A stretch of DNA of 64,000 nt from Candidatus Buchananbacteria bacterium (lineage in GTDB: Bacteria; Patescibacteriota; Patescibacteriia; Buchananbacterales; UBA6539). Below are positions 11,118 through 50,707 of this stretch, piece by piece (position 1 is the first letter of the stretch; each line of letters starts with the position of its first letter). A program made the position numbers and the translations under genes. The notes beneath the pieces are model-generated. The model was not told the DNA's origin, did not search any database, and worked only from the letters and a program-made list of their open reading frames with translations. The stretch covers positions 206,362-270,361 of the forward strand of contig JABWCG010000001.1 of the NCBI GenBank assembly GCA_013359225.1, written 5' to 3'.

Positions 11118-11355
11118 GTGGGACTGGCTCACCATGGGTCCAGTTTGTGTTTGCACCTTATAATTTGGGTTATTGATAACAACGAAAAACGACACCAAAG
11201 GAGTGTCACAACAAGAGGAGATGTGCCTATAAGGAGAGCAGGGAAGCTTTGGCAGGACAAGTGCGTAAGGAACATTTCTTGAGCCGCGCGGCTTGAGAGA
11301 TGAGTGTCGAACAACGTGAAACCGAAACGGAAACGAATGAAGAGGAGTGAAACGA

Positions 11356-14300
11356 ATGAACACGATGGTTCGCAACATGATGGTGTGCGTCATGGCGGCG
11401 CTGGTGGTGCTGTTGACCTCCGGCTGCCCGATGACGCCCGATCCGCCCAACCAGCCGACGCAACCGACGTTCGACGTTCGGACCCGGCTGATTGAAGGCA
11501 AAGCCGAAGTAGTGGTCCGCAACACGGACACGCGACAGGTCAGCATTCAGATTCTGGTCCAGGATGACCGTACCGGCGACTACTTTCCCGCGTACGACGA
11601 AACCGGCGACCAGCTCCTGCGCAGCATCATGCAGCCGGGAGTCCAAACCACCGTAACTGGACAGCTTGTTAACCGCACGTATGAAGGTCACCCCGTGATC
11701 GACATCGGCGGCGGCGGAGTTCACAGTTACTGGTGGTGGGATCCGTATGCGCCGCTGTATCTCTACCCGGTTCCGCCCAGCATAAGCGTGGACTGGGAGA
11801 CATACGTGACTGACGAGGAGATCACCATCACCGAAACGACGTTTGTTGACGGTGAAGGGGCGTACTTGGGCGCACAATTCGTGTTGCCCGAAGCCGGACG
11901 CTACATGGTTCGGGTCACTGGTTTTAACGAGCAGAACGTTGAGTTCAAGCCGTTTGAAACCGTGTTGCCTGACTACGATGGAACAACGCCGGACCCGGAT
12001 CCCGAAGACACCGCCGACCTGGAAGTCCTGTACTTCAGCAATTACGGAGACGTCAACGGGTACGTCTATGGCATCGTCCATGGCGTGAATCCGTCGACCC
12101 ACTCCGTCGCGTGCTACATCAACGTCGACTCAATGTGGTGGCCCAAGCCGGATTTCGGCAACGGCGCCTTGACCCCGTTGGAAAATGGCGGTTACTTTGA
12201 GACCGACATTACCACGGGCGGCGACGATCAGCGCGCAACGTTGATCTACTTGGCTGTGGTGCCAAACGGTACGCAAGTGCCGCAGGCGCCCAGCCTTGAC
12301 CAGCCCTACATTCCGGAAGCGCTCACCAGCAAGCTATTGGTGCGTAATCCCGGACCGGTTGAAGGCGGACCTGGCGTGATTGATTTCACTGAAGTGCCCT
12401 ACTACAAGGATCCTGACGGGGTGCTTCGCGGTACGGTTTCAGGAGTCAATTTCGCTGACTATCAAGTCGCTGTCTACATCCTTGTCGAGGGAGTCTGGTG
12501 GCAAAAGCCGGACTGCACCCTCGTCGACATCATGAGCAATGGTTCCTGGTCGGCTGACGTGACCGTGGTGCCAAGCGACGCGAACGCAACGCAGTTCGCC
12601 GCGTTTCTCGTCCCGCGGGGTACTTCAGTACCCTGCACGGTGTATCCGACCAAGAGCAAATCCTTGGTGGCTGGTATTGATATCCCGGGCGCGGTTGATT
12701 ACGTCATCGTGAACCGGGTACCGCATATCGGCCTGACCAAAATTCCGGCCTACGAAGACACGGTCGGTGACCTGCGCGGTATCGTGGAAGCGCTCGACCC
12801 GACGCAGTACGATATCCATACCTTTATCCGGGTTCCCGGTGAAGGCTGGATTGCGAAGCCGGGCTTTGCGCCTGACGACGCGACGGTTGTTGCCGCTGAC
12901 GGTACGTGGTCGTGTGACATCGTTACCGGATTGCCGGGGCAGACCAACGATCATCGGGCAACTGAGATCTGGGTTTTGCTGTTTGGCAAGGGTGTTGAAG
13001 TAACGCCGTGCGGAGACGCTGTTTGTAGCGACCTGAATATCGACACGGTGGTGAACAACGCCAGTGCTGGGATCTGGGTGAATCGTCGTCCGGGAGCGGA
13101 AGATGAAGAACCTATTATCACCATCATCGGCGCAAACCCGGTCACTTTGGCAGTTGGCAGCGGGCCGTATACCGATTTGGGCGCTACGGCGTTTGATACG
13201 GAAGACGGCGACCTGTCGGCAGAAATCGTTACCACCAATGACGTCAACACGTCGGCGGTGGGAACGTATCACGTGAATTACAGCGTGACGGACAGTGCGA
13301 GCCACACGGTGAACGCTTCCCGAACGGTTCACGTGGTGGATACCGTCGGTCCGGTAATTACCGTTTTGGGCGCAAACCCGCTGCACGTGCAGCAGGGAAG
13401 CGGCCCGTATGTTGATCCAGGCGCCACGGCGTTTGACAACTACAACGGTGACATCACCGGCAGCATTGTGAAGACCGGTTCGGTCGACACGAACACTCCC
13501 GGTACCTACACCATTAACTACAGCGTGCAAGACAGCTCCGGCAACTCTGCCAGCGCTTCGCGCACGGTAGTGGTGGATGAGGTGGTCGAGGATCAACCCC
13601 CGGTCATTACGATCTTGGGGTCAAATCCTCATACCGTCCAAGTCTTGAGCGGCCCGTATCCGGAATCCGGTGCGACCGCCCTTGACCCGGAAGATGGGGA
13701 CATCTCGAACCTGATCGGAACCGTGTCCACGGTGGACATGACGACGATCGGTACGTACAACGTGACCTATTCGGTCACAGACAGCGGCGGCCACCCGGTC
13801 CAAGCGGTGAAAGTCGTTTACGTTGTCGACACGGTGGCGCCGGTTGTTGATCCGATTCCGGACCAGTTCCGTTTGGCGCTGGCATCGGGCGACCTTGATC
13901 TCGGTAACTATGGCTACGACGCGTACGACGAGAACGCGACGTGGTCCATCGTACCCGGATACGACACCAACCTGATTTCGGTGAGCTTGTCGGGAACGAT
14001 CCTGACGATCACCGGGAAAAACGTCGGTGGTACAACCGTACTCACCGTGAAACTGACCGATGGCAGTGGAAATTTCACCACGGCCGACATCAACGTCACG
14101 GTTAGCCCCTGCCAAACGGCATTTATCCAGATTACCGCCGAACCCGGCAGTATTGATGGATTTCCGAATGCGGTGGCCGGCGAAGTGTGCGGCGTCGATC
14201 CGTCAACGCATAAAGTAGTTCTGTACGTTCGCGTGCACGATGCGGTGAGCGGTAACGATTACGCTTGGGTAAAGCCGAACTTCGGGGCCGAGAAATACAC

Positions 14301-14505
14301 GGCCATCAATCCGGACGGCACCTGGGAGTCGTCGGTCGCTCCTGACGCCAATACCTGGAAAGAGGTGCGGGCGTACTTGGTTGAAGATGGTACTTCGATG
14401 CCCGACGCTGGGTCAAGTGGTCCAATGCTGTGGAGCGATTTCCTTGGGTTAAACCTGGAAAACACTTCCGGTGTGCTCGGCCTCGCCTTTGTCACCAACG
14501 GGTGA
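11356..14505 (+). CDS. Large surface lipoprotein with tandem DUF5011-like Ig-fold repeats. The gene is compositionally foreign (GC-rich).
   Basis: The start is ATG 11356, with a GAGGAG RBS 8 nt upstream. The ORF track's GTG at 11347 is too close to the RBS to be the start. The signal peptide has a lipobox 'LLTSGC'. Three tandem ~80-aa repeats of the form 'PVITxxGANPxxxxxGSGPYxDxGATAxDxxDGDxxxxIVxTxxVDTxxxGTYxxNYSVxDSxGN...RTVxVVD' are present. Upstream there are four or more repeats of a ~100-aa module with a conserved 'WW.KPD' motif. Sampled lines are 58-70% GC. Confidence 0.8.
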   Translation: MNTMVRNMMVCVMAALVVLLTSGCPMTPDPPNQPTQPTFDVRTRLIEGKAEVVVRNTDTRQVSIQILVQDDRTGDYFPAYDETGDQLLRSIMQPGVQTTVTGQLVNRTYEGHPVIDIGGGGVHSYWWWDPYAPLYLYPVPPSISVDWETYVTDEEITITETTFVDGEGAYLGAQFVLPEAGRYMVRVTGFNEQNVEFKPFETVLPDYDGTTPDPDPEDTADLEVLYFSNYGDVNGYVYGIVHGVNPSTHSVACYINVDSMWWPKPDFGNGALTPLENGGYFETDITTGGDDQRATLIYLAVVPNGTQVPQAPSLDQPYIPEALTSKLLVRNPGPVEGGPGVIDFTEVPYYKDPDGVLRGTVSGVNFADYQVAVYILVEGVWWQKPDCTLVDIMSNGSWSADVTVVPSDANATQFAAFLVPRGTSVPCTVYPTKSKSLVAGIDIPGAVDYVIVNRVPHIGLTKIPAYEDTVGDLRGIVEALDPTQYDIHTFIRVPGEGWIAKPGFAPDDATVVAADGTWSCDIVTGLPGQTNDHRATEIWVLLFGKGVEVTPCGDAVCSDLNIDTVVNNASAGIWVNRRPGAEDEEPIITIIGANPVTLAVGSGPYTDLGATAFDTEDGDLSAEIVTTNDVNTSAVGTYHVNYSVTDSASHTVNASRTVHVVDTVGPVITVLGANPLHVQQGSGPYVDPGATAFDNYNGDITGSIVKTGSVDTNTPGTYTINYSVQDSSGNSASASRTVVVDEVVEDQPPVITILGSNPHTVQVLSGPYPESGATALDPEDGDISNLIGTVSTVDMTTIGTYNVTYSVTDSGGHPVQAVKVVYVVDTVAPVVDPIPDQFRLALASGDLDLGNYGYDAYDENATWSIVPGYDTNLISVSLSGTILTITGKNVGGTTVLTVKLTDGSGNFTTADINVTVSPCQTAFIQITAEPGSIDGFPNAVAGEVCGVDPSTHKVVLYVRVHDAVSGNDYAWVKPNFGAEKYTAINPDGTWESSVAPDANTWKEVRAYLVEDGTSMPDAGSSGPMLWSDFLGLNLENTSGVLGLAFVTNG

Positions 14506-35990: not shown

Positions 35991-36344
35991 CTAGCACTCG
36001 TGGGGAGCCGGCAAGAACTTGCCGTGTCTCCACTGTTGGCACCAGGCGATGATAATCGTCGGCGCCGCAAACGCGAAGTGAAGGAACGTAAGGGCAACGA
36101 GGTTGCCCAGGTTGTGGCTGTTACCCGCGAGCCAACCGCGGCGGTGGGTGATGGCACCAGCGATGATGCCCCAGCCAACCTGCGAAACGAGGATGATGAG
36201 CATACCCAGGCCCATCATTTCCGGGGCGAAGATTTCCTTCCCCCAGAACTGCTCGCTCGTGAGCCCGACGCCGACGGCGACGAATGCCGTGAGGTAGGCG
36301 AGCATGAACACGTCGAACAGCGCTGCCGCGATAAGCTTTCTCAT
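35991..36344 (-). CDS. GC-rich (foreign-composition) small membrane protein of 117 aa.
   Basis: An AGGAG RBS lies about 8 nt upstream of the ATG at 36342-36344. Three to four hydrophobic helices are predicted. The sampled line 36121-36180 is about 68% GC. Confidence 0.6.
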   Translation of the reverse strand: MRKLIAAALFDVFMLAYLTAFVAVGVGLTSEQFWGKEIFAPEMMGLGMLIILVSQVGWGIIAGAITHRRGWLAGNSHNLGNLVALTFLHFAFAAPTIIIAWCQQWRHGKFLPAPHEC

Positions 36345-36443
36345 CTGATTTTGCTCCTGATTTCGCCGGATTGCTCAAACTTGAGATTTCCCAAGTTGGA
36401 AGGACCACCCTTCCAATAATCCAGCATTTTCAAAGATAAATAT

Positions 36444-39157: not shown

Positions 39158-39940
39158 ATGGTTTATACTGATTACAGTATGGCATACACTATTGGTCAGT
39201 TGGCAAAATTGTCAGGGGTAACAATTAGGACGCTTCATCATTATGATGAAATCGGCCTGCTTTCTCCTGGTAAAAATAGTAAAAATAATTATCGTTTATA
39301 CGAAGAAAAGGACTTGCTTCGTTTGCAGCAAATACTTTTTTTCCGCGAGTTGGATTTTGCCTTGGCCGATATTAAAAAAATAATTGACCGACCGGATTTT
39401 GCAGTGAGCCAAGCCCTGCGTGATCATAAGCGTTTGATTAAACTAAAACAAAAAAGATTGGATAATCTTATTAAGACAATTGATAAAACAATTAATCATA
39501 TGACTAAACAATCAATCATTAAAGACGAAGAACTTTACGATGTTTTTAAAGATAACGACGTTAAGCAATATCAGCAAGAAGTTAAGCGGCGCTGGGGCGA
39601 TACGTCTGCTTATCAACAGAGTATGGCAGAAGTTAGCAAGATGACTAAGGGGGAAATGGAAAAATTAAAACAGGACGCAAAAATTTTTACTCAGAAGTTG
39701 GCCGACGCAATGGATAAAAAAATTGAAAGTCCCGAAGTACAAAATCTAATCAAAGAGCATTATCAAGGAATCAATTTTTTCTATGACTGTTCAATTCCAA
39801 TGTATCGTCATTTGGCTCAGATGTATGTTGATGATAGCCGCTTTACTGCTTATTACGAAAAGTTTCGTCCGGGGCTGGCAAAGTTTGTCCGCGATGCCAT
39901 ATGTTACTTTTGCGACCAAAAAGAAAAAACCTCTGATTAA
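39158..39940 (+). CDS. MerR-family regulator with a TipAS-like C-terminal effector domain.
   Basis: The N-terminal MerR HTH is 'YTIGQLAKLSGVTIRTLHHYDEIGLL'. The C-terminal ~150 aa resemble the TipAS/Mta domain. Confidence 0.75.
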   Translation: MVYTDYSMAYTIGQLAKLSGVTIRTLHHYDEIGLLSPGKNSKNNYRLYEEKDLLRLQQILFFRELDFALADIKKIIDRPDFAVSQALRDHKRLIKLKQKRLDNLIKTIDKTINHMTKQSIIKDEELYDVFKDNDVKQYQQEVKRRWGDTSAYQQSMAEVSKMTKGEMEKLKQDAKIFTQKLADAMDKKIESPEVQNLIKEHYQGINFFYDCSIPMYRHLAQMYVDDSRFTAYYEKFRPGLAKFVRDAICYFCDQKEKTSD

Positions 39941-39955
39941 GCCAGAGGTTTTTTG

Positions 39956-40834
39956 TTATGAAGTTTGGTCGGGGTTGTTTTGGGCGGCGCGAATTGCGGT
40001 CGCGCTAATTGCTTCAATGTGCGAATCAAGTCTGATTTCGCGGATGCCCCAGCCGACTTCGCGGCCATAGCAAATATCCTCAATGTCGGGGATGACAATA
40101 ATTTTAACGGTATCACCAAAGATTTTTCTAAACATTTCTTTTCGTTCAGTTACCGAGTATGGATTTTTTTCGTCAATCGGGGTGTGCCGCAAAGCGACGC
40201 ACACCTGTTTGCCTTCGTCCAGCACTTTGCGGATTAAACTAATATGACCATCGTGCAGCGGCTGGAACCGCCCGATAAACATTGAATATTTTTTGGGAGC
40301 AAAATAGTTATCTAAAATCAACTGGACTGATTCAGCAACATTCAAAGTGTCAGAATGAATTTCCAGTGCGTCAGTTGGCGGTTCGTAGGGGTCGGAAATT
40401 CCCGTGAAGTTGGTAATGGCACCAGCTAAAGCTTTTTTGTATAACCCTTTGACGTCACGGCGAATGCATTCTTTAAGGTTGCAATTAACAAAAACTTCAA
40501 CGACGTTTGGGTATTGCTTTTTTATTTCATCGCGGACTGATTTGATCGGGCTGACCAGCGCCACAATCACCGGGGTGTAGCGACTAAACCGTTCGGCCAT
40601 TTCAGCCACCATTAACATGTGTTTGCGCCGACCCTCAGTTGAAAAATCCTGGTTATCAATAATCAAGCGAATTTCGTCGCCGTCAAGAATTTCTGCATTG
40701 ATGTGCTTGGCCAATTCCCGGGCAATGGTGGTTTTGCCGCTACACGGCAGGCCAGTGAGCCAAATAATCTGATTCATTTTAGTTAATTTTCTAGTGTTGG
40801 TCAGCTGCGTGCTTAAATAACAAACCCGAAACAA
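39956..40834 (-). CDS. Fusion protein: an N-terminal P-loop kinase (APS-kinase/AAA_33-like) and a C-terminal cytidylyltransferase-like nucleotidyltransferase (HxGH motif).
   Basis: The P-loop is 'IIWLTGLPCSGKTTIAREL'. The nucleotidyltransferase motif is 'FIGRFQPLHDGHISLI'. Confidence 0.55.
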   Translation of the reverse strand: MFRVCYLSTQLTNTRKLTKMNQIIWLTGLPCSGKTTIARELAKHINAEILDGDEIRLIIDNQDFSTEGRRKHMLMVAEMAERFSRYTPVIVALVSPIKSVRDEIKKQYPNVVEVFVNCNLKECIRRDVKGLYKKALAGAITNFTGISDPYEPPTDALEIHSDTLNVAESVQLILDNYFAPKKYSMFIGRFQPLHDGHISLIRKVLDEGKQVCVALRHTPIDEKNPYSVTERKEMFRKIFGDTVKIIVIPDIEDICYGREVGWGIREIRLDSHIEAISATAIRAAQNNPDQTS

Positions 40835-41399
40835 TAAACAGCAAAACGAAAAATGCGTTTAATACAAAGACGGCAATAACACCGGGACTAAACGCCGGTT
40901 GCCAAATCGTTAATGCAATCACGGGAACTAAGGCCTGGGTTAGCGCGGTTGCGAATAAGACGAACGACATTTTGCGAGGTTTGAGGCGGGCGATAATGGT
41001 GCCGATAAAGCCGACAGCAAGGACGCCAAAGTATAATAAATTAGCGGGGTTGTTTTCGCTGCCGATAATCCCGACTGCACCATTGATCCAGACAAGCAGA
41101 AAAGCAGTTGCTAGGGCGATTGCCACAGCGGTTTTGAATGTGGGAGTGTTGGCTTGTTTAGTAATTAACTCATATGCCAAAGCGGCGCCAAACATCAGAC
41201 CGCCCATAAGTATAAAATCAAACAAACTCCAGTTTACTTCTTTGGTAAATTGCATCGCTACCAAGGGGATTAGCAGTACGAGTATGACGATCACGACCCA
41301 GATGCTTAGTCTTTTGGTGATGTTTGACATAGTAGTAAAAGTTATTTTAATTTTAGCGATGAGGACAGCCAGCCCAACAGCAAGGTCGTCGCATACCAC
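40791..41399 (-). CDS. Hypothetical membrane protein.
   Basis: Six hydrophobic helices are predicted. Confidence 0.45.
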   Translation of the reverse strand: MVCDDLAVGLAVLIAKIKITFTTMSNITKRLSIWVVIVILVLLIPLVAMQFTKEVNWSLFDFILMGGLMFGAALAYELITKQANTPTFKTAVAIALATAFLLVWINGAVGIIGSENNPANLLYFGVLAVGFIGTIIARLKPRKMSFVLFATALTQALVPVIALTIWQPAFSPGVIAVFVLNAFFVLLFIVSGLLFKHAADQH

Positions 41400-41604
41400 C
41401 CCGCATCTTGGAAAGGGCCTTGTCTATTCGAATGTTTCTGGTTTCCGCTTTTTTGCCGGAAGTAACCCAACAAATCCATTCGTTGCGTGCGAGTGGTGTG
41501 ATGTCTTGCCAGATTAAAAACACTTTTGGGTCGGAAGTAATCGCTTTTTTAAAATCAGTTGGCAGTTTATGAATTGTGCCCGAAGAGATTTCTTGCTTAG
41601 TCAT
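41353..41604 (-). CDS. YdeI/OmpD-associated-like small protein.
   Basis: An 83-aa ORF whose family assignment rests on memory. Confidence 0.4.
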   Translation of the reverse strand: MTKQEISSGTIHKLPTDFKKAITSDPKVFLIWQDITPLARNEWICWVTSGKKAETRNIRIDKALSKMRGGMRRPCCWAGCPHR

Positions 41605-41607
41605 AGA

Positions 41608-41775
41608 TTACTTGTGAGTCTTTTTTCGGTTTTTTATTGCGACAGCAATAACGGTGATAATTACTATCAGTCCAATTAATTGTGCGCCCGGACTATCGTC
41701 AAAGCCGCCGAAGATAATCATAAAAACCCCGAAGGCGATGGCGAGTAGGTAATATAGTATTTTGATTTTGTTCAT
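41608..41775 (-). CDS. Small 55-aa membrane protein, not in the ORF track.
   Basis: The ATG at 41773-41775 opens 'MNKIKILYYLLAIAFGVFMIIFGGFDDSPGAQLIGLIVIITVIAVAIKNRKKTHK*'. It ends 4 nt before the downstream gene's start. Confidence 0.3.
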   Translation of the reverse strand: MNKIKILYYLLAIAFGVFMIIFGGFDDSPGAQLIGLIVIITVIAVAIKNRKKTHK

Positions 41776-41862
41776 AATAAATATAGTATACCATAAAACC
41801 GGCCTGTTCGGCCGGCCTCATTATGTTGGTGCATATTAGATTATTTATGATATAATCAAATT

Positions 41863-42318
41863 ATGAAAAAACTTCAATTTACAATTGAAATAAAAGCTTC
41901 TAAAGAAAAAGTGTGGAGCACTATGCTTGAGGATAAAACCTATCGGCAGTGGGCAGCCACATTTAGTCCAGGCTCCTACTATAAAGGAGATTGGAGTAAG
42001 GGGTCTAAGATGCATTTCCTTGGGCCAAACCCACAAACAGGGGAAGAGGGTGGCATGGTGAGTGAAGTTTTAGAAAATAGGCCACATGAATTTATTTCTC
42101 TTGGGCACATTGGTTTTGTGCAAAACGGAAAAGAAGACACCGTTAGTGAAGAAGCCAAAAAATGGACCTCGGCGTTTGAAAATTATACTTTTAATGAAAA
42201 GAATGGTGCAACCGAACTTGTGGTAGACTTGAATGTTACGGATGAATTAGCGGAAGAGTTTGAGAAAATGTGGCCTGATGCTTTACAAAAGTTAAAGGAG
42301 CTTTCGGAAATCAAATAA
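41863..42318 (+). CDS. SRPBCC/AHSA1-family protein.
   Basis: The N-terminus 'IEIKASKEKVWSTMLEDKTYRQWAA' is typical. Confidence 0.65.
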   Translation: MKKLQFTIEIKASKEKVWSTMLEDKTYRQWAATFSPGSYYKGDWSKGSKMHFLGPNPQTGEEGGMVSEVLENRPHEFISLGHIGFVQNGKEDTVSEEAKKWTSAFENYTFNEKNGATELVVDLNVTDELAEEFEKMWPDALQKLKELSEIK

Positions 42319-42344
42319 AACTCTAAAGATAAAACTTTAAACAA

Positions 42345-42378
42345 AAAACTCCTCTTTTGGTAGAGGAGTTTTTTGTGG
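42345..42378. terminator. Bidirectional Rho-independent terminator.
   Basis: The sequence is AAAAAACTCCTCT-tttggt-AGAGGAGTTTTTTG. Confidence 0.8.
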
Positions 42379-42447
42379 TAGCCCTTATCGGGACGCGACT
42401 CGAACTTTTTTGAAGCAGTTAAGCAAAATTCTTACACGCGACTTTAC

Positions 42448-44241
42448 TTACGGTTCAATGCTTGATTGAATTATTAAATCAATAGATTGCAAAAATGTCG
42501 CCGGCAAAATTTTTTTACTCGCTAACATATCATAAAGTCGCTCCAATATAAAAGTCTTTTTTATATCACTTCTTTTTACAAACCCTTTCATTTTTTCCAC
42601 TTTTGTTATTCTGTCAAGAAGTTTAAAATTGTTTAAATCTTGTTTATTTTTCTGATCAAGATTGAAAAATTTTACTCCTTCCTGCAAAAACCATTTTATT
42701 ATTTCATCAACATTTTCCTGAGAAACTAGGGCTTGTTCGATAGAATCTTTAAATATTAAAAAACCGTTGGTCTTGAAATGTTTTTTGGAATATTTGAATA
42801 TTTTTGATGAATCACCTTGAGACTTAAAATTTTTTTTATAGTATTTAATAAATTTATTAAACCCCACCTTGTTTAACTGTTTCATTTGTATTAACTGATT
42901 TTCCAGGGATTCACAAGAATCTTTCCGTGACATAACATCTCCATCAAAACTGATAATGAGTGGGATGTTAAATTGGCTTATGACTTTGTAATAATCAAAA
43001 ATCCTTGAGTAGCCACCATAGGGAATGATAACCGTAGAAAAGTGTTTTCTCCCTCTCAGGGTTTTTTTAATAATTCTATAGTCCGTAAGCCCCTCAACTA
43101 AAATTGCCTTATCTGAAAAAAACAACTCTGACCCAACTACGTCAGTTTTATCATAAATATCGTACAATAGGCGTGATGTAACAGATATTTGAGTGCTTTT
43201 ACAATCACTTCCTTCTTTCCACATCTTTACTACATTCTTATAGTCTTCAGGTCCAAGCTCGTTCACCACTACCGATGAATGTGTGCTGATTATTGATTGG
43301 GTTTCGTCATTTTTAATGTAGTTAAAAATTGCGCGTTGAGCACCGGGGTGCAAAAATATTTCCGGCTCCTCAATCCCCAATATAACAATTGGCTTAGTGC
43401 CAAGCTGATTGGCAACAAATTTGATCAGCGTTATTAAAATAATACTTTGTAGTCCGGTTCCTTGATATTTAAAATTAGTTTTTATATCATCTTTGTTTAT
43501 AAGATGAAGATTAATGGTTTGGCCCATGAGTTCAATAAAATGCTCTTGGTTAAAAATAAATTCAACTTTTTCATTGTTATCAAAATTAAATTCATGCAAG
43601 ACAGACCCTATTAAATCTTCTGAGTCTTTAAATTTTTTATGAAGTATTGACCAAAAATTATTGTATGCTTTGATATATTTCCGAGCTCCTTGAAGGCTTA
43701 GTTTCAAAAATTCTAAAAGAATGGTTTTTTCAATTTCAGTATCTTTAAGTCTTATTGCTGATATCTTTGCAAATTTAACGTTATTTCTAACGGCCTCAAA
43801 TAATTCATTGGCTTTTGACTTTTCCCCGACAAAGGACGTCAGCTTTCCGCGTTTAGATGTTATGCAAATTTTTCTTTTTTGAATTTCATTAAAATTTCTA
43901 GGATATTCAATCTCAACATCCAATACCAAATTGTCGTGCCCTCGTACTTTCCGAAAATGATAGCCTAATTTTCTAGTGAGTAATTTTTTTGTTTTATCTT
44001 TTTCGAATCTGAGCTTAATCTTAGTGGAAGCCCTGTAGCCACGCCCGCCTTTCTGTAACTGTTGAGGATAATCTAAATCAGAATCGTATGGCGCATCATT
44101 AAAAAATAGATCAAGTGCATTTAGTACGGTAGATTTGCCAGAATTATTTGGCCCTACGAGAAGAAGAAAATCTCCTATATTGAAAGCAGCTGAACCGCAT
44201 ATACTTCTATAATTTTTTATCTCTATGGAAATAAGTCTCAT
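42448..44241 (-). CDS. OLD-family nuclease: an N-terminal ABC-type ATPase plus a C-terminal Toprim domain.
   Basis: Walker A is 'LLLVGPNNSGKST'. The signature-like motif is 'YQGTGLQS'. Walker B / D-loop is 'IVILGIEEPEIFLHP'. The H-loop is 'ISTHS'. The Toprim is 'AILVEGLTDYRII...ISFDGD'. The locus is very AT-rich compared with its neighbours. Confidence 0.8.
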   Translation of the reverse strand: MRLISIEIKNYRSICGSAAFNIGDFLLLVGPNNSGKSTVLNALDLFFNDAPYDSDLDYPQQLQKGGRGYRASTKIKLRFEKDKTKKLLTRKLGYHFRKVRGHDNLVLDVEIEYPRNFNEIQKRKICITSKRGKLTSFVGEKSKANELFEAVRNNVKFAKISAIRLKDTEIEKTILLEFLKLSLQGARKYIKAYNNFWSILHKKFKDSEDLIGSVLHEFNFDNNEKVEFIFNQEHFIELMGQTINLHLINKDDIKTNFKYQGTGLQSIILITLIKFVANQLGTKPIVILGIEEPEIFLHPGAQRAIFNYIKNDETQSIISTHSSVVVNELGPEDYKNVVKMWKEGSDCKSTQISVTSRLLYDIYDKTDVVGSELFFSDKAILVEGLTDYRIIKKTLRGRKHFSTVIIPYGGYSRIFDYYKVISQFNIPLIISFDGDVMSRKDSCESLENQLIQMKQLNKVGFNKFIKYYKKNFKSQGDSSKIFKYSKKHFKTNGFLIFKDSIEQALVSQENVDEIIKWFLQEGVKFFNLDQKNKQDLNNFKLLDRITKVEKMKGFVKRSDIKKTFILERLYDMLASKKILPATFLQSIDLIIQSSIEP

Positions 44242-44340
44242 AGCCTATGGTATTAATATATAGTAAGAATACCAAAAAATCGCCTACAGGGCGATTTTTT
44301 GACTTTTAACCTTTCAGGGTCTTCCGATAAAATTTTTCTT

Positions 44341-44415
44341 TGGTAGCGCCACGGGGAATCGAACCCCGGTTACATGGATGAGAACCATGCGTCCTAGCCG
44401 CTAGACGATGGCGCC
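44341..44415 (-). tRNA. tRNA-Glu(CUC).
   Basis: The reverse complement folds as a cloverleaf with anticodon loop TTCTCAT, T-loop GGTTCGATTCC and an encoded CCA. A minus-strand TTGACT-17-TATTAT promoter lies upstream. Confidence 0.85.
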
Positions 44416-44529
44416 ATAAAACGAATTCTATAATAACTAATTTTTGGCTTTTAGTCAATAAGTATCATTGACAATCAATGCTCTTTCGTGTAGAATCTAT
44501 TATTGTTATTAATCAATTTTTTAATCAAA

Positions 44530-50109: not shown

Positions 50110-50212
50110 AATAGTTATGAAGTCTGCAGAAGGGAAAAATCCCTTTTGGCCCTGATATTTCGGGGTAATTTCACAGACTTTACGCTCGTGTTCCAACTTA
50201 TGGAGGCAGGAC

Positions 50213-50683
50213 ATGTTTTTCAGGGTCAATCTGGCAACGTTGGAGGTGGAACGGTTGAATGTTCGTAACCTCTCGGAAGTTCCGGGGGTTAAGAGCAACG
50301 GCCAGCACTACCAGCTCGAAGGTTTCGCCCTCGTTGAGGTGCGAACCCCAAGCTGCGAGATGCTGCTGTTTCATCCGGAAACCCAGTCCAGCAGCGGTCA
50401 CATCGACGTGACCTATCGGCCGCAGCGGCACGACGGTGCCTACGGGGTGGACATGCAGATGTACACTCATGGCTGCGAATTGGACTTCGCCAACGACCAC
50501 TCCTTCCAGTATCACTGGCCGTCGGGTCAGTGGCATCTCTTGATGGCGATCGACGCCATCGAGCAGTTCCTGAAGCAGGAAATCGGCTACACGCCGCACC
50601 TGCGCGAGTACATCGGCCACACCTTCCGGCCCACCCCGCCCAAGCTCGCGAACCTTGAGCCTGGTGAATCGGCCGCCGCCTAA
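50213..50683 (+). CDS. GC-rich (foreign-composition) hypothetical protein of 156 aa.
   Basis: A GGAGG RBS sits 6 nt upstream of the ATG. A strong terminator follows. The sampled line 50401-50460 is about 65% GC. No motif was recognised. Confidence 0.6.
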   Translation: MFFRVNLATLEVERLNVRNLSEVPGVKSNGQHYQLEGFALVEVRTPSCEMLLFHPETQSSSGHIDVTYRPQRHDGAYGVDMQMYTHGCELDFANDHSFQYHWPSGQWHLLMAIDAIEQFLKQEIGYTPHLREYIGHTFRPTPPKLANLEPGESAAA

Positions 50684-50707
50684 TCTAGGCACGGCGGCAA
50701 GCCCCAC

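What the first reader, a model, noticed from the sequence alone, without database searches (positions are those of the whole stretch)
42345..44415. A low-GC OLD-family (ATPase plus Toprim) nuclease gene inserted beside tRNA-Glu, a candidate single-gene anti-phage defence locus
The 597-aa minus-strand protein has Walker A GPNNSGKST, an ABC-signature-like GTGLQS, Walker B/D-loop EEPEIFLHP and H-loop STHS. Its C-terminal Toprim has EG...D and DGD motifs. That is the OLD / GajA / PARIS-type architecture.

It is markedly more AT-rich than its neighbours. It is isolated between two bidirectional terminators (42345-42378 and about 44270-44300) and abuts tRNA-Glu, a classic island hotspot.

No UvrD-like helicase (GajB) partner is adjacent. 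So this is a class-1 standalone OLD or a fused AriAB-like protein rather than canonical Gabija.

A tRNA-3'-end-like fragment ('...GTTCGAGTCGCGTCCCGATAAGGGCTACCA' on the minus strand, 42379-42410) lies at the far side. It might be a degenerate att remnant.
Basis: partly seen in the sequence, partly recalled or inferred. Interest (0 to 1): 0.65.

Follow-up and report, generated by a model that had tools for sequence, protein, structure and literature searches.

The report
Standalone OLD-family defence nuclease beside tRNA-Glu
A small-genome groundwater-type bacterium (Candidatus Buchananbacteria) carries a single, foreign-looking gene for an OLD-family ATP-powered nuclease next to a tRNA gene; it is most likely an anti-phage defence gene and a divergent member of a known family, not a new kind of system.

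Summary
Window 42448-44241 (-) encodes an intact 597-aa protein with an ABC ATPase followed by an OLD-type Toprim. The best HMM hits are AAA_15, OLD-like_TOPRIM and PADLOC 'Old'. The best solved relatives are TsOLD, GajA and the retron-Eco8 OLD.

The gene has the lowest GC (0.319) and GC3 (0.286) of 59 ORFs in the window. Perfect hairpin terminators bracket it. It lies 3' of tRNA-Glu(CTC).

No helicase, reverse transcriptase, AriB or recombinase gene is adjacent, so by genomic context it is a Class 1 (standalone) OLD.

New findings:
- The clade is tiny, with about five full-length proteins at 34-37% identity.
- In three of its four homologue loci the gene sits in restriction-modification islands with a large serine recombinase. 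In one of these it follows a tRNA-Gln gene.
- None of 31 relatives' ABC-F neighbourhoods holds an OLD gene.

The 'tRNA-like att remnant' is not statistically supported. Anti-phage function is inferred, not shown. Verdict: a new member of a known kind, of modest interest.

The parts
42448..44241 (-). OLD-family nuclease gene, 597 aa (NCBI protein NUM25260.1, annotated only as 'AAA family ATPase')
   Evidence: ORF. HMM hits. 100% identical to P0001. AF2 model has pLDDT 88 and pTM 0.88.
43147..44241 (-). N-terminal ABC ATPase region (aa 1-365). Walker A is at 44128-44154, signature-like GTGLQS at 43444-43461, Walker B/D-loop at 43345-43383, and H-loop STHS at 43276-43287.
   Evidence: G30, N32, K36, G261, G263, E292, P293, E294, P299 and H321 are invariant in 73 homologues.
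43591..43740 (-). Helical insertion in the ATPase (aa 168-217, two long helices). This is the position of the dimerisation domain of TsOLD.
   Evidence: Secondary structure of the AF2 model. TsOLD domain description in PMC7049728. The dimerisation role is inferred.
42727..43134 (-). OLD-type Toprim domain (aa 370-505). It contains E383/D387 (43081-43095), D433/D435 (42937-42945) and S500/E502 (42736-42744). A helical insert of about 55 aa lies between strands 3 and 4.
   Evidence: PF20469 hit. Alignment to TsOLD E377/D381/D431/D433. E383, G384 and D433 are invariant and D435 is present in 63 of 73 homologues. Secondary structure.
42451..42711 (-). C-terminal five-helix domain (aa 511-597). It is conserved within the clade and has invariant K540, K561 and K562.
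44341..44415 (-). tRNA-Glu(CTC) with an encoded CCA. Its 3' end faces the OLD gene 100 nt away.
   Evidence: ARAGORN. Rfam tRNA hit of 59.6 bits.
44273..44301 (.). Perfect 12-bp hairpin flanked by A-runs and T-runs. It is a terminator of tRNA-Glu and lies only about 30 nt upstream of the OLD start codon.
   Evidence: I22.
42341..42376 (.). Perfect 15-bp hairpin flanked by A-runs and T-runs. It is a bidirectional terminator shared by OLD and the convergent AHSA1/SRPBCC gene.
   Evidence: I8. Fold z-score -4.4 for 42330-42450.
42376..42405 (-). tRNA-3'-end-like fragment GTTCGAGTCGCGTCCCGATAAGGGCTACCA. It is a possible but unsupported att relic.
   Evidence: pattern rare but defined post hoc; no tRNA model hit; alignment not significant.
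44430..44458 (-). Sigma-70-like promoter (TTGACT-17-TATTAT) upstream of tRNA-Glu. It is the only good consensus promoter from which read-through into OLD could come.
   Evidence: 10 of 12 matches. Any role for OLD expression is inferred.

Best explanation
The gene encodes an intact OLD-family enzyme: an ABC-type ATPase fused to a Toprim nuclease. It was acquired horizontally as a single-gene cassette on the 3' side of tRNA-Glu in a Candidatus Buchananbacteria genome. It most likely serves as a standalone (Class 1 by context) anti-phage defence.

Proposed mechanism, inferred from characterised relatives:
- The protein dimerises through the helical insertion in its ATPase.
- ATP binding or hydrolysis in the ABC head gates the Toprim active site.
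- That site cuts double-stranded nucleic acid by two-metal catalysis. Metal A is held by E383, D433 and D435. Metal B is held by D387, S500 and E502.
- A lysine from the C-terminal helical domain (candidates K540, K547, K561, K562) would stabilise the transition state, as K562 does in Class 2 BpOLD.

The most likely target is phage DNA, nicked or degraded during replication as shown for Vc OLD and TsOLD. Cleavage of tRNA anticodon stems, as shown for P2 OLD, is the main alternative. Either outcome would block phage multiplication.

Shown here: domain architecture, catalytic residues, fold, atypical composition, isolation between terminators, absence from relatives, and the defence-island context of the clade. 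Inferred: oligomeric state, substrate, trigger and the defence phenotype.
For: Family membership:
- Pfam AAA_15 1.6e-27, AAA_21 1.7e-16, OLD-like_TOPRIM 4.8e-10.
- PADLOC 'Old' is the best hit for all five clade members.
- phrog_4747 scores 4e-50.
- TsOLD 6p74 is the best PDB sequence match, 1.8e-26 with the clade profile.
- Foldseek top hits are GajA, TsOLD and Eco8-OLD at 1e-16 to 1e-19.

Catalytic residues align to those shown by mutagenesis in TsOLD.

Foreign origin:
- The gene has the lowest GC and GC3 of 59 ORFs.
- In all five clade loci the OLD gene has lower GC than its locus.

Variable occupancy:
- 0 of 31 relatives' ABC-F neighbourhoods hold an OLD gene.
- The 3' side of tRNA-Glu(CTC) is empty in L009, L026 and L040, holds an M23 peptidase in L002 and L038, and holds OLD in the window.

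Defence and mobile context of the clade:
- P0002, P0003 and P0004 lie beside large serine recombinases and type II or type III restriction-modification genes.
- In L013 the layout is tRNA-Gln, hairpin, OLD, as in the window.

Standalone OLD proteins have been shown to defend against phage: Vc OLD (PMC12392090), P2 OLD (PMC12445682) and YbjD (PMC13261556).
Against: - There is no functional data. No phage or host is known for this organism.
- The window holds no recombinase or integrase, no convincing att repeat, and no other defence gene within 64 kb among the ORFs scanned.
- No good consensus promoter lies between the upstream terminator and the start codon, so expression is uncertain.
- The closest relatives available have ABC-F only 68-85% identical (table). 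Absence of OLD there shows genus-level rather than strain-level variability, and the whole neighbourhood is rearranged.
- OLD proteins with non-defence or unclear roles exist: Cran1 (PMC12796447), and YbjD, whose Toprim is dispensable (PMC13261556).
Confidence: 0.7

Rival explanations
1. It is an orphan Class 2 (GajA-type) OLD that has lost, or works without, its GajB helicase. In that case its behaviour would follow Gabija, with sequence-specific nicking that is inhibited by nucleotides.
Against: None of the five clade loci has a UvrD/PcrA/Rep-like gene next to OLD. 'Old' outscores every GajA model (121 vs 97 bits or less). The clade profile hits TsOLD at 1.8e-26 but the Class 2 C-terminal regions only at 8e-5 and 0.04, and it does not hit B. 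cereus GajA at E<=1. Published trees place Class 2 nested inside Class 1, so a helical domain alone does not define Class 2 (PMC12796447).
Confidence: 0.1
2. It is a selfish stabilisation (addiction or abortive) module of a mobile element that has since decayed. It would be retained here as a relic with little benefit to the cell, or it may be silent.
For: In L013, L014 and L016 the homologue's 3' end overlaps a convergent large serine recombinase gene. P2 OLD kills recBC cells (PMC7049728, PMC12445682). The window has no recombinase and no clear promoter.
Against: The reading frame and every catalytic motif are intact, which argues for ongoing selection. The restriction-modification neighbours in the homologue loci point to defence islands. 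Addiction and defence are not mutually exclusive.
Confidence: 0.1
3. It is a housekeeping OLD-family ATPase/nickase acting in chromosome or cell-cycle processes, as Cran1 does in Sulfolobales.
For: Cran1 shows that OLD proteins can have essential non-defence roles (PMC12796447). CPR genomes have reduced repair gene sets (general knowledge).
Against: Cran1-type genes are vertically inherited and conserved. This gene is absent from 31 relatives' loci and is a singleton at 50% identity among 1.84 billion cluster representatives. It has the most atypical composition in the window. Its homologues sit among restriction-modification and recombinase genes.
Confidence: 0.05
4. It is a fused PARIS-type AriA-AriB protein (Class 4) that senses anti-restriction proteins and cleaves tRNA.
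For: The AriA model PDLC02979 matches the ATPase half (5.5e-28, aa 1-326). Fused AriAB forms are known (PMC12392090).
Confidence: 0.03

Closest known systems
Class 1 OLD nucleases (Thermus scotoductus OLD, PDB 6P74; P2 Old; Vibrio cholerae Vc OLD; E. coli YbjD/OldB)
   Same: It is a single gene with no partner. It has an N-terminal ABC ATPase with a helical insertion and a C-terminal Toprim. The metal A and metal B residues align to Ts E377, D431, D433 and D381, S478, E480. TsOLD is the best PDB sequence match.
   Different: Identity to TsOLD is only about 14-20% in the structural alignments. The protein is about 70 aa longer. It has a helical insert within the Toprim and a five-helix C-terminal domain that TsOLD lacks. 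No residue equivalent to Ts R487 could be identified. Contrary to the usual description of Class 1, its close homologues lie among other defence genes.
Class 2 OLD / GajA of Gabija (B. pseudomallei OLD C-terminal region 6NK8; B. cereus GajA 8SM3, 8U7I)
   Different: No adjacent GajB (UvrD-like) gene is present here or in any clade member. GajA HMMs score below 'Old'. The sequence profile barely detects Class 2 C-terminal regions.
Class 3 OLD (retron Eco8 effector, PDB 9P4J/9LP9)
   Different: There is no reverse transcriptase or ncRNA nearby. NCBIfam retron_eff_Eco8 scores 60 bits against a cut-off of 250. Eco8 OLD is about 140 aa longer.
tRNA-linked genomic (defence) islands
   Same: The gene lies directly 3' of a tRNA gene. 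It has atypical composition. The site is occupied differently in relatives. One homologue (L013) has the layout tRNA-Gln, OLD, serine recombinase, type III restriction-modification.
   Different: The window has no integrase or recombinase and no verifiable direct repeat. The 'island' is a single gene of about 2 kb.

Membership tests
OLD family (ABC ATPase + Toprim nucleases) | N-terminal ABC-type ATPase with Walker A, signature-like motif, Walker B/D-loop and H-loop | tested here: met
   AAA_15 97.5 bits (cut-off 32.1) and AAA_21 61.6 bits (cut-off 27). Motifs verified by translation. They are invariant in 73 homologues.
OLD family (ABC ATPase + Toprim nucleases) | C-terminal OLD-type Toprim with a conserved Glu and a DxD | tested here: met
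   PF20469 40.3 bits (cut-off 23.2) at aa 374-435. E383 and D433 are invariant and D435 is present in 63 of 73 homologues. They align to Ts E377, D431 and D433.
OLD family (ABC ATPase + Toprim nucleases) | Fold similar to solved OLD proteins | tested here: met
Class 1 OLD | Single gene with no adjacent UvrD-like helicase, reverse transcriptase/ncRNA or separate Toprim gene | tested here: met
   The neighbours are tRNA-Glu and ABC-F on one side and AHSA1/SRPBCC, OmdA, a membrane protein and APS-kinase on the other. The four homologue loci also show no conserved partner gene.
Class 1 OLD | Toprim without the Class 2 helical insert or C-terminal helical domain, as described for TsOLD | tested here: not met
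Class 1 OLD | Conserved Arg/Lys at the Ts R487 position | tested here: inconclusive
   There is no basic residue 7 aa after E502; the invariant residue there is N510. The invariant K540, K561 and K562 lie in the helical domain.
Class 2 OLD (GajA, Gabija) | Adjacent gajB gene (UvrD/PcrA/Rep-like helicase) | tested here: not met
   No helicase lies beside the gene in the window or in L013-L018. The ResIII protein in L013 is a type III restriction subunit 3 kb away.
Class 3 OLD (retron effector) | Adjacent reverse transcriptase and msr/msd ncRNA, with an equivalog HMM score above cut-off | tested here: not met
   NF038234 scores 60.3 bits against a cut-off of 250. There is no RT among the neighbours and no Rfam retron hit.
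Class 4 OLD (PARIS AriA/AriB or fused AriAB) | AriB-type (DUF4435) Toprim, either split or fused | tested here: not met
tRNA-associated genomic island | Atypical composition and variable occupancy next to a tRNA gene | tested here: met
   The gene has the lowest GC and GC3 of 59 ORFs. OLD is absent from 31 relatives' loci. The 3' side of tRNA-Glu exists in three different states.
tRNA-associated genomic island | Integrase or recombinase gene within the island | tested here: not met
   tblastn of the homologue-linked serine recombinases against the window finds nothing better than E = 1.3.
tRNA-associated genomic island | Direct repeat of the tRNA 3' end at the distal border | tested here: inconclusive
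   Only the blocks GTTCGA and GCTACCA are shared. The two-block pattern is rare but was defined post hoc. There is no tRNA model hit. The alignment gives p = 0.24. No other flanking repeat was found.
Anti-phage defence system | Protection against phage on expression | not testable with these tools
   Only inferred, from family membership and from the restriction-modification and recombinase context of the homologues.

The most novel reading that the evidence does not exclude
The gene represents a previously undescribed, very rare OLD clade that may be confined to CPR/Patescibacteria-like genomes. This clade would combine the Class 1 lifestyle (no partner gene) with a Class 2-type catalytic C-terminal region: a Toprim with a helical insert, plus a helical domain that supplies the catalytic lysine. 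It would travel as cargo of large-serine-recombinase defence islands that settle 3' of tRNA genes. If so, it would show that the GajA-type nuclease module can work without GajB. It would also offer a minimal OLD for studying how the ATPase gates a Class 2-like active site.
Probability: 0.2. Interest if true: 0.5.

Novelty: new member of a known kind. Interest (0 to 1): 0.3.

Why it matters
Standalone (Class 1) OLD nucleases are rare, reported in about 0.45% of genomes (PMC12392090). Only a few have been characterised, and those differ in target: DNA nicking in Vc OLD and tRNA anticodon-stem cleavage in P2 OLD.

This example adds a divergent lineage from an ultra-small CPR genome. It has a Class 2-like C-terminal architecture but no helicase partner, and its relatives sit in restriction-modification and recombinase islands. 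That is useful for mapping how OLD classes relate to one another, and for annotation, since NCBI names the protein only 'AAA family ATPase'. It does not change what is known about how such systems work.

Tried and rejected
- **Exact look-up of the protein's contig** found nothing on record. The source was identified through P0001 instead.
- **tRNA-relic test.** MAFFT, an Rfam E-value scan, a repeat search and shuffled Smith-Waterman alignment gave no support beyond two short blocks.
- **Recombinase remnant.** No remnant is detectable in the window.
- **DNA alignment of tRNA-Glu flanks with L002 and L009,** intended to find insertion boundaries. The flanks are too diverged.
- **Shared cargo or flanks between the window and the homologue loci.** Only OLD itself is shared.
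- **Viral collections.** IMG/VR and GenBank phages hold only distant OLD relatives at 22-30% identity.
- **Class labels from the Cran1 supplementary dataset.** The accession is not present, and motif look-ups hit only 'Class 1' rows. This is not a rigorous placement.
- **Metagenome scan for strain-level relatives.** The closest ABC-F is 85% identical, so no same-species comparison was possible.
- **Consensus promoter between the upstream terminator and the start codon.** None reached 9 of 12 matches.
Full report
**Observation**

The window holds a 597-aa ORF at 42448-44241 on the minus strand. Its N-terminus is colinear with all its homologues, so the start codon is right.

- Walker A GPNNSGKST (aa 30-38)
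- signature-like GTGLQS (aa 261-266)
- Walker B/D-loop ILGIEEPEIFLHP (aa 287-299)
- H-loop STHS (aa 319-322)
- Toprim EGLTD (aa 383-387)
- Toprim DGD (aa 433-435)

tRNA-Glu(CTC) is at 44341-44415 (-), with its 3' end pointing at the OLD gene 100 nt away.

Two perfect hairpins bracket the gene. One is 44273-44284/44290-44301. The other is 42341-42355/42362-42376. Both carry flanking A-runs and T-runs.

The gene has GC 0.319 and GC3 0.286, the lowest of 59 ORFs of at least 100 aa in the window (z about -2.1 and -2.0). The GC dip is limited to the gene.

**Family**

HMM hits:
- Pfam gives AAA_15 (1.6e-27), AAA_21 (1.7e-16) and OLD-like_TOPRIM (4.8e-10, aa 374-435), all above their curated cut-offs.
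- PADLOC's best model is 'Old' (1.2e-35). GajA and AriA models follow. 'Old' is the best model for all five members of the clade.
- NCBIfam's retron-Eco8 effector model scores 60 bits against a cut-off of 250.
- PHROGs gives phrog_4747 (4e-50, function unknown).

Structure:
- The only significant PDB sequence relative is the Class 1 Thermus scotoductus OLD, 6P74. It scores 9.7e-13 with the single sequence and 1.8e-26 with the clade profile.
- A confident AlphaFold2 model (pLDDT 88, pTM 0.88) finds GajA, TsOLD and retron-Eco8 OLD as its top PDB matches, at 1e-16 to 1e-19.

Catalytic residues:
- TsOLD residues shown by mutagenesis are E377, D431 and D433 (metal A) and D381, S478 and E480 (metal B) (PMC7049728).
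- They align to E383, D433 and D435, and to D387, S500 and E502.
- E383, G384 and D433 are invariant in 73 homologues.

**Class**

By genomic context the gene is Class 1. The upstream neighbours are tRNA-Glu and an ABC-F ATPase. The downstream neighbours are an AHSA1/SRPBCC protein, OmdA/YdeI, a membrane protein, an APS-kinase fusion and a MerR/TipAS regulator.

No UvrD-like helicase, reverse transcriptase or AriB is adjacent. None was seen among the other large ORFs scanned.

The architecture departs from the solved Class 1 protein:
- The model has a helical insert of about 55 residues between Toprim strands 3 and 4.
- It also has a five-helix C-terminal domain at aa 511-592.

The residue equivalent to Ts R487 is not apparent. 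Invariant lysines K540, K561 and K562 lie in the helical domain. This fits a Class 2-style lysine donor, but I could not measure distances.

Published trees place Class 2 inside the diversity of Class 1 and list eleven uncharacterised clades (PMC12796447). A standalone OLD with a Class 2-like C-terminal region is therefore unusual but not outside the known family.

**Rarity and relatives**

The protein is NCBI NUM25260.1, annotated 'AAA family ATPase', from a 601,517-bp contig of a Candidatus Buchananbacteria MAG.

Only four full-length proteins are closer than about 30% identity. These are P0002-P0005, at 34-37%.

A clade-profile search of 1.84 billion cluster representatives gave these results:
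- two full-length representatives and three fragments scored above 200 bits;
- scores then dropped into the general OLD continuum;
- 28,108 hits had E<=1e-3.

**Context of the homologues**

P0002, P0003 and P0004 lie beside a large serine recombinase gene.
- In L013, L014 and L016 that gene is convergent with OLD and overlaps its 3' end.
- In L017 it is on the opposite strand, about 2.6 kb downstream.

These three also lie among restriction-modification genes:
- type III Mod/Res in L013;
- a type II endonuclease, a Dcm-type methylase and Vsr in L016;
- a type II methylase and endonuclease in L017.

In L013 the layout is tRNA-Gln(CTG), terminator-like hairpin, OLD, recombinase, restriction-modification. 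This mirrors the tRNA-hairpin-OLD layout of the window.

L016 carries an RpoD 72% identical to that of L005, a contig whose ABC-F is 73% identical to the window's. It is therefore probably also a Patescibacteria genome (inference).

In all five loci the OLD gene has lower GC than its surroundings.

The window has no recombinase and shares nothing but OLD with those loci.

**Occupancy in relatives**

I fetched 31 neighbourhoods of the adjacent ABC-F gene from genomes and metagenomes, with 68-85% protein identity. None encodes an OLD homologue.

Where tRNA-Glu(CTC) is next to ABC-F, its 3' side takes three forms:
- directly followed by ABC-F (L009, L026, L040);
- holding an M23 peptidase (L002, L038);
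- in the window, followed by OLD.

The tRNA is inverted in the window relative to those loci, and the surrounding 33 kb is rearranged. The comparison therefore shows a variable, rearrangement-prone site at genus level. It does not show strain-level presence/absence.

**The att-remnant idea**

The fragment at 42376-42405 (-) shares only GTTCGA and GCTACCA with tRNA-Glu.
- That two-block pattern occurs only at these two places in the window (0.03 expected), but I defined it after seeing the data.
- The tRNA covariance model does not detect the fragment.
- No contiguous flanking repeat exists.
- A local alignment scores no better than shuffles (p = 0.24).

I treat it as unproven.

**Mechanism**

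By analogy with characterised OLD proteins, I propose the following.
- The protein forms a dimer through the helical insertion in its ATPase.
- ATP binding or hydrolysis licenses a two-metal Toprim nuclease that cuts double-stranded nucleic acid.
- Phage DNA nicking or degradation is the most likely activity (Vc OLD, TsOLD; PMC12392090, PMC7049728).
- tRNA anticodon-stem cleavage is the main alternative (P2 OLD; PMC12445682).

The trigger is unknown. Expression may depend on read-through from the tRNA-Glu promoter, because a terminator lies about 30 nt upstream of the start codon and no good consensus promoter follows it. All of this is inference.

**Rivals**

- An orphan GajA is possible on structural grounds but lacks contextual and HMM support.
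- A selfish-element relic fits the recombinase linkage of the homologues. The intact motifs argue for ongoing selection.
- A Cran1-like housekeeping role conflicts with the patchy distribution and foreign composition.

**Verdict**

The gene is a divergent standalone OLD-family nuclease, almost certainly acquired horizontally, and is a plausible single-gene defence locus.

It is a new member of a known kind, with a Class 2-like C-terminal region as its one unusual feature. CPR genomes are already known to be dense in defence systems (PMC12259885). Interest is modest.

Noticed in passing
window 11347-14505 (+): A 1052-aa ORF has very high GC (0.58; GC3 0.70; z +3.1 and +3.9). It encodes a protein with Bact_surface_Ig-like repeats. 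It sits exactly where synteny with relatives (DnaK, DnaJ, membrane protein, tRNA-Glu, ABC-F) breaks. It is probably a foreign surface-protein gene.
   Followed up: partly
window 36000-36419 and 50198-50707: Two short high-GC patches (0.59 and 0.60) carry ORFs of 139 and 169 aa. They have no Pfam hit and no Rfam family. Their predicted folds are more stable than shuffles (z -4.2 and -3.4). Their nature is unexplained.
   Followed up: partly
L013 4553-12000: A homologue locus has the order tRNA-Gln(CTG), terminator-like hairpin, OLD (P0002), convergent large serine recombinase overlapping the OLD 3' end, then type III restriction-modification genes. It looks like a complete tRNA-linked defence island of the kind the window may have once had.
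   Followed up: partly
window 44242-44303; L013 4700-4749; L017 about 90-186: A terminator-like hairpin lies 20-55 nt upstream of the OLD start codon in several clade members. It is followed by an AT-rich stretch resembling a -10 box, with no clear Shine-Dalgarno sequence. This may mean a short-leader or leaderless, insulated, low-level expression design.
   Followed up: no
L001-L010 and L022-L042, upstream of the ABC-F gene: The region upstream of ABC-F differs in almost every relative. It can hold tRNA-Glu, tRNA-Asn or tRNA-Leu in either orientation, or GreA, or BipA plus a secreted protein. It appears to be a rearrangement hotspot in this lineage. In the window, tRNA-Glu is inverted relative to L002, L009 and L026.
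   Followed up: partly
window 39158-42318: Beside OLD lies a run of accessory-type genes: a MerR/TipAS regulator, an APS-kinase plus cytidylyltransferase-like fusion, a membrane protein, OmdA/YdeI and AHSA1/SRPBCC. None has a counterpart in the fetched relatives' loci. This may be a larger variable region.
   Followed up: no
L003, L005, L008, L010 (record titles): Several public MAG contigs titled 'uncultured Gammaproteobacteria bacterium' carry ABC-F proteins 71-74% identical to this Buchananbacteria gene, and L005 carries an RpoD 72% identical to that of L016. Their taxonomic labels look wrong; they are probably Patescibacteria.
   Followed up: no
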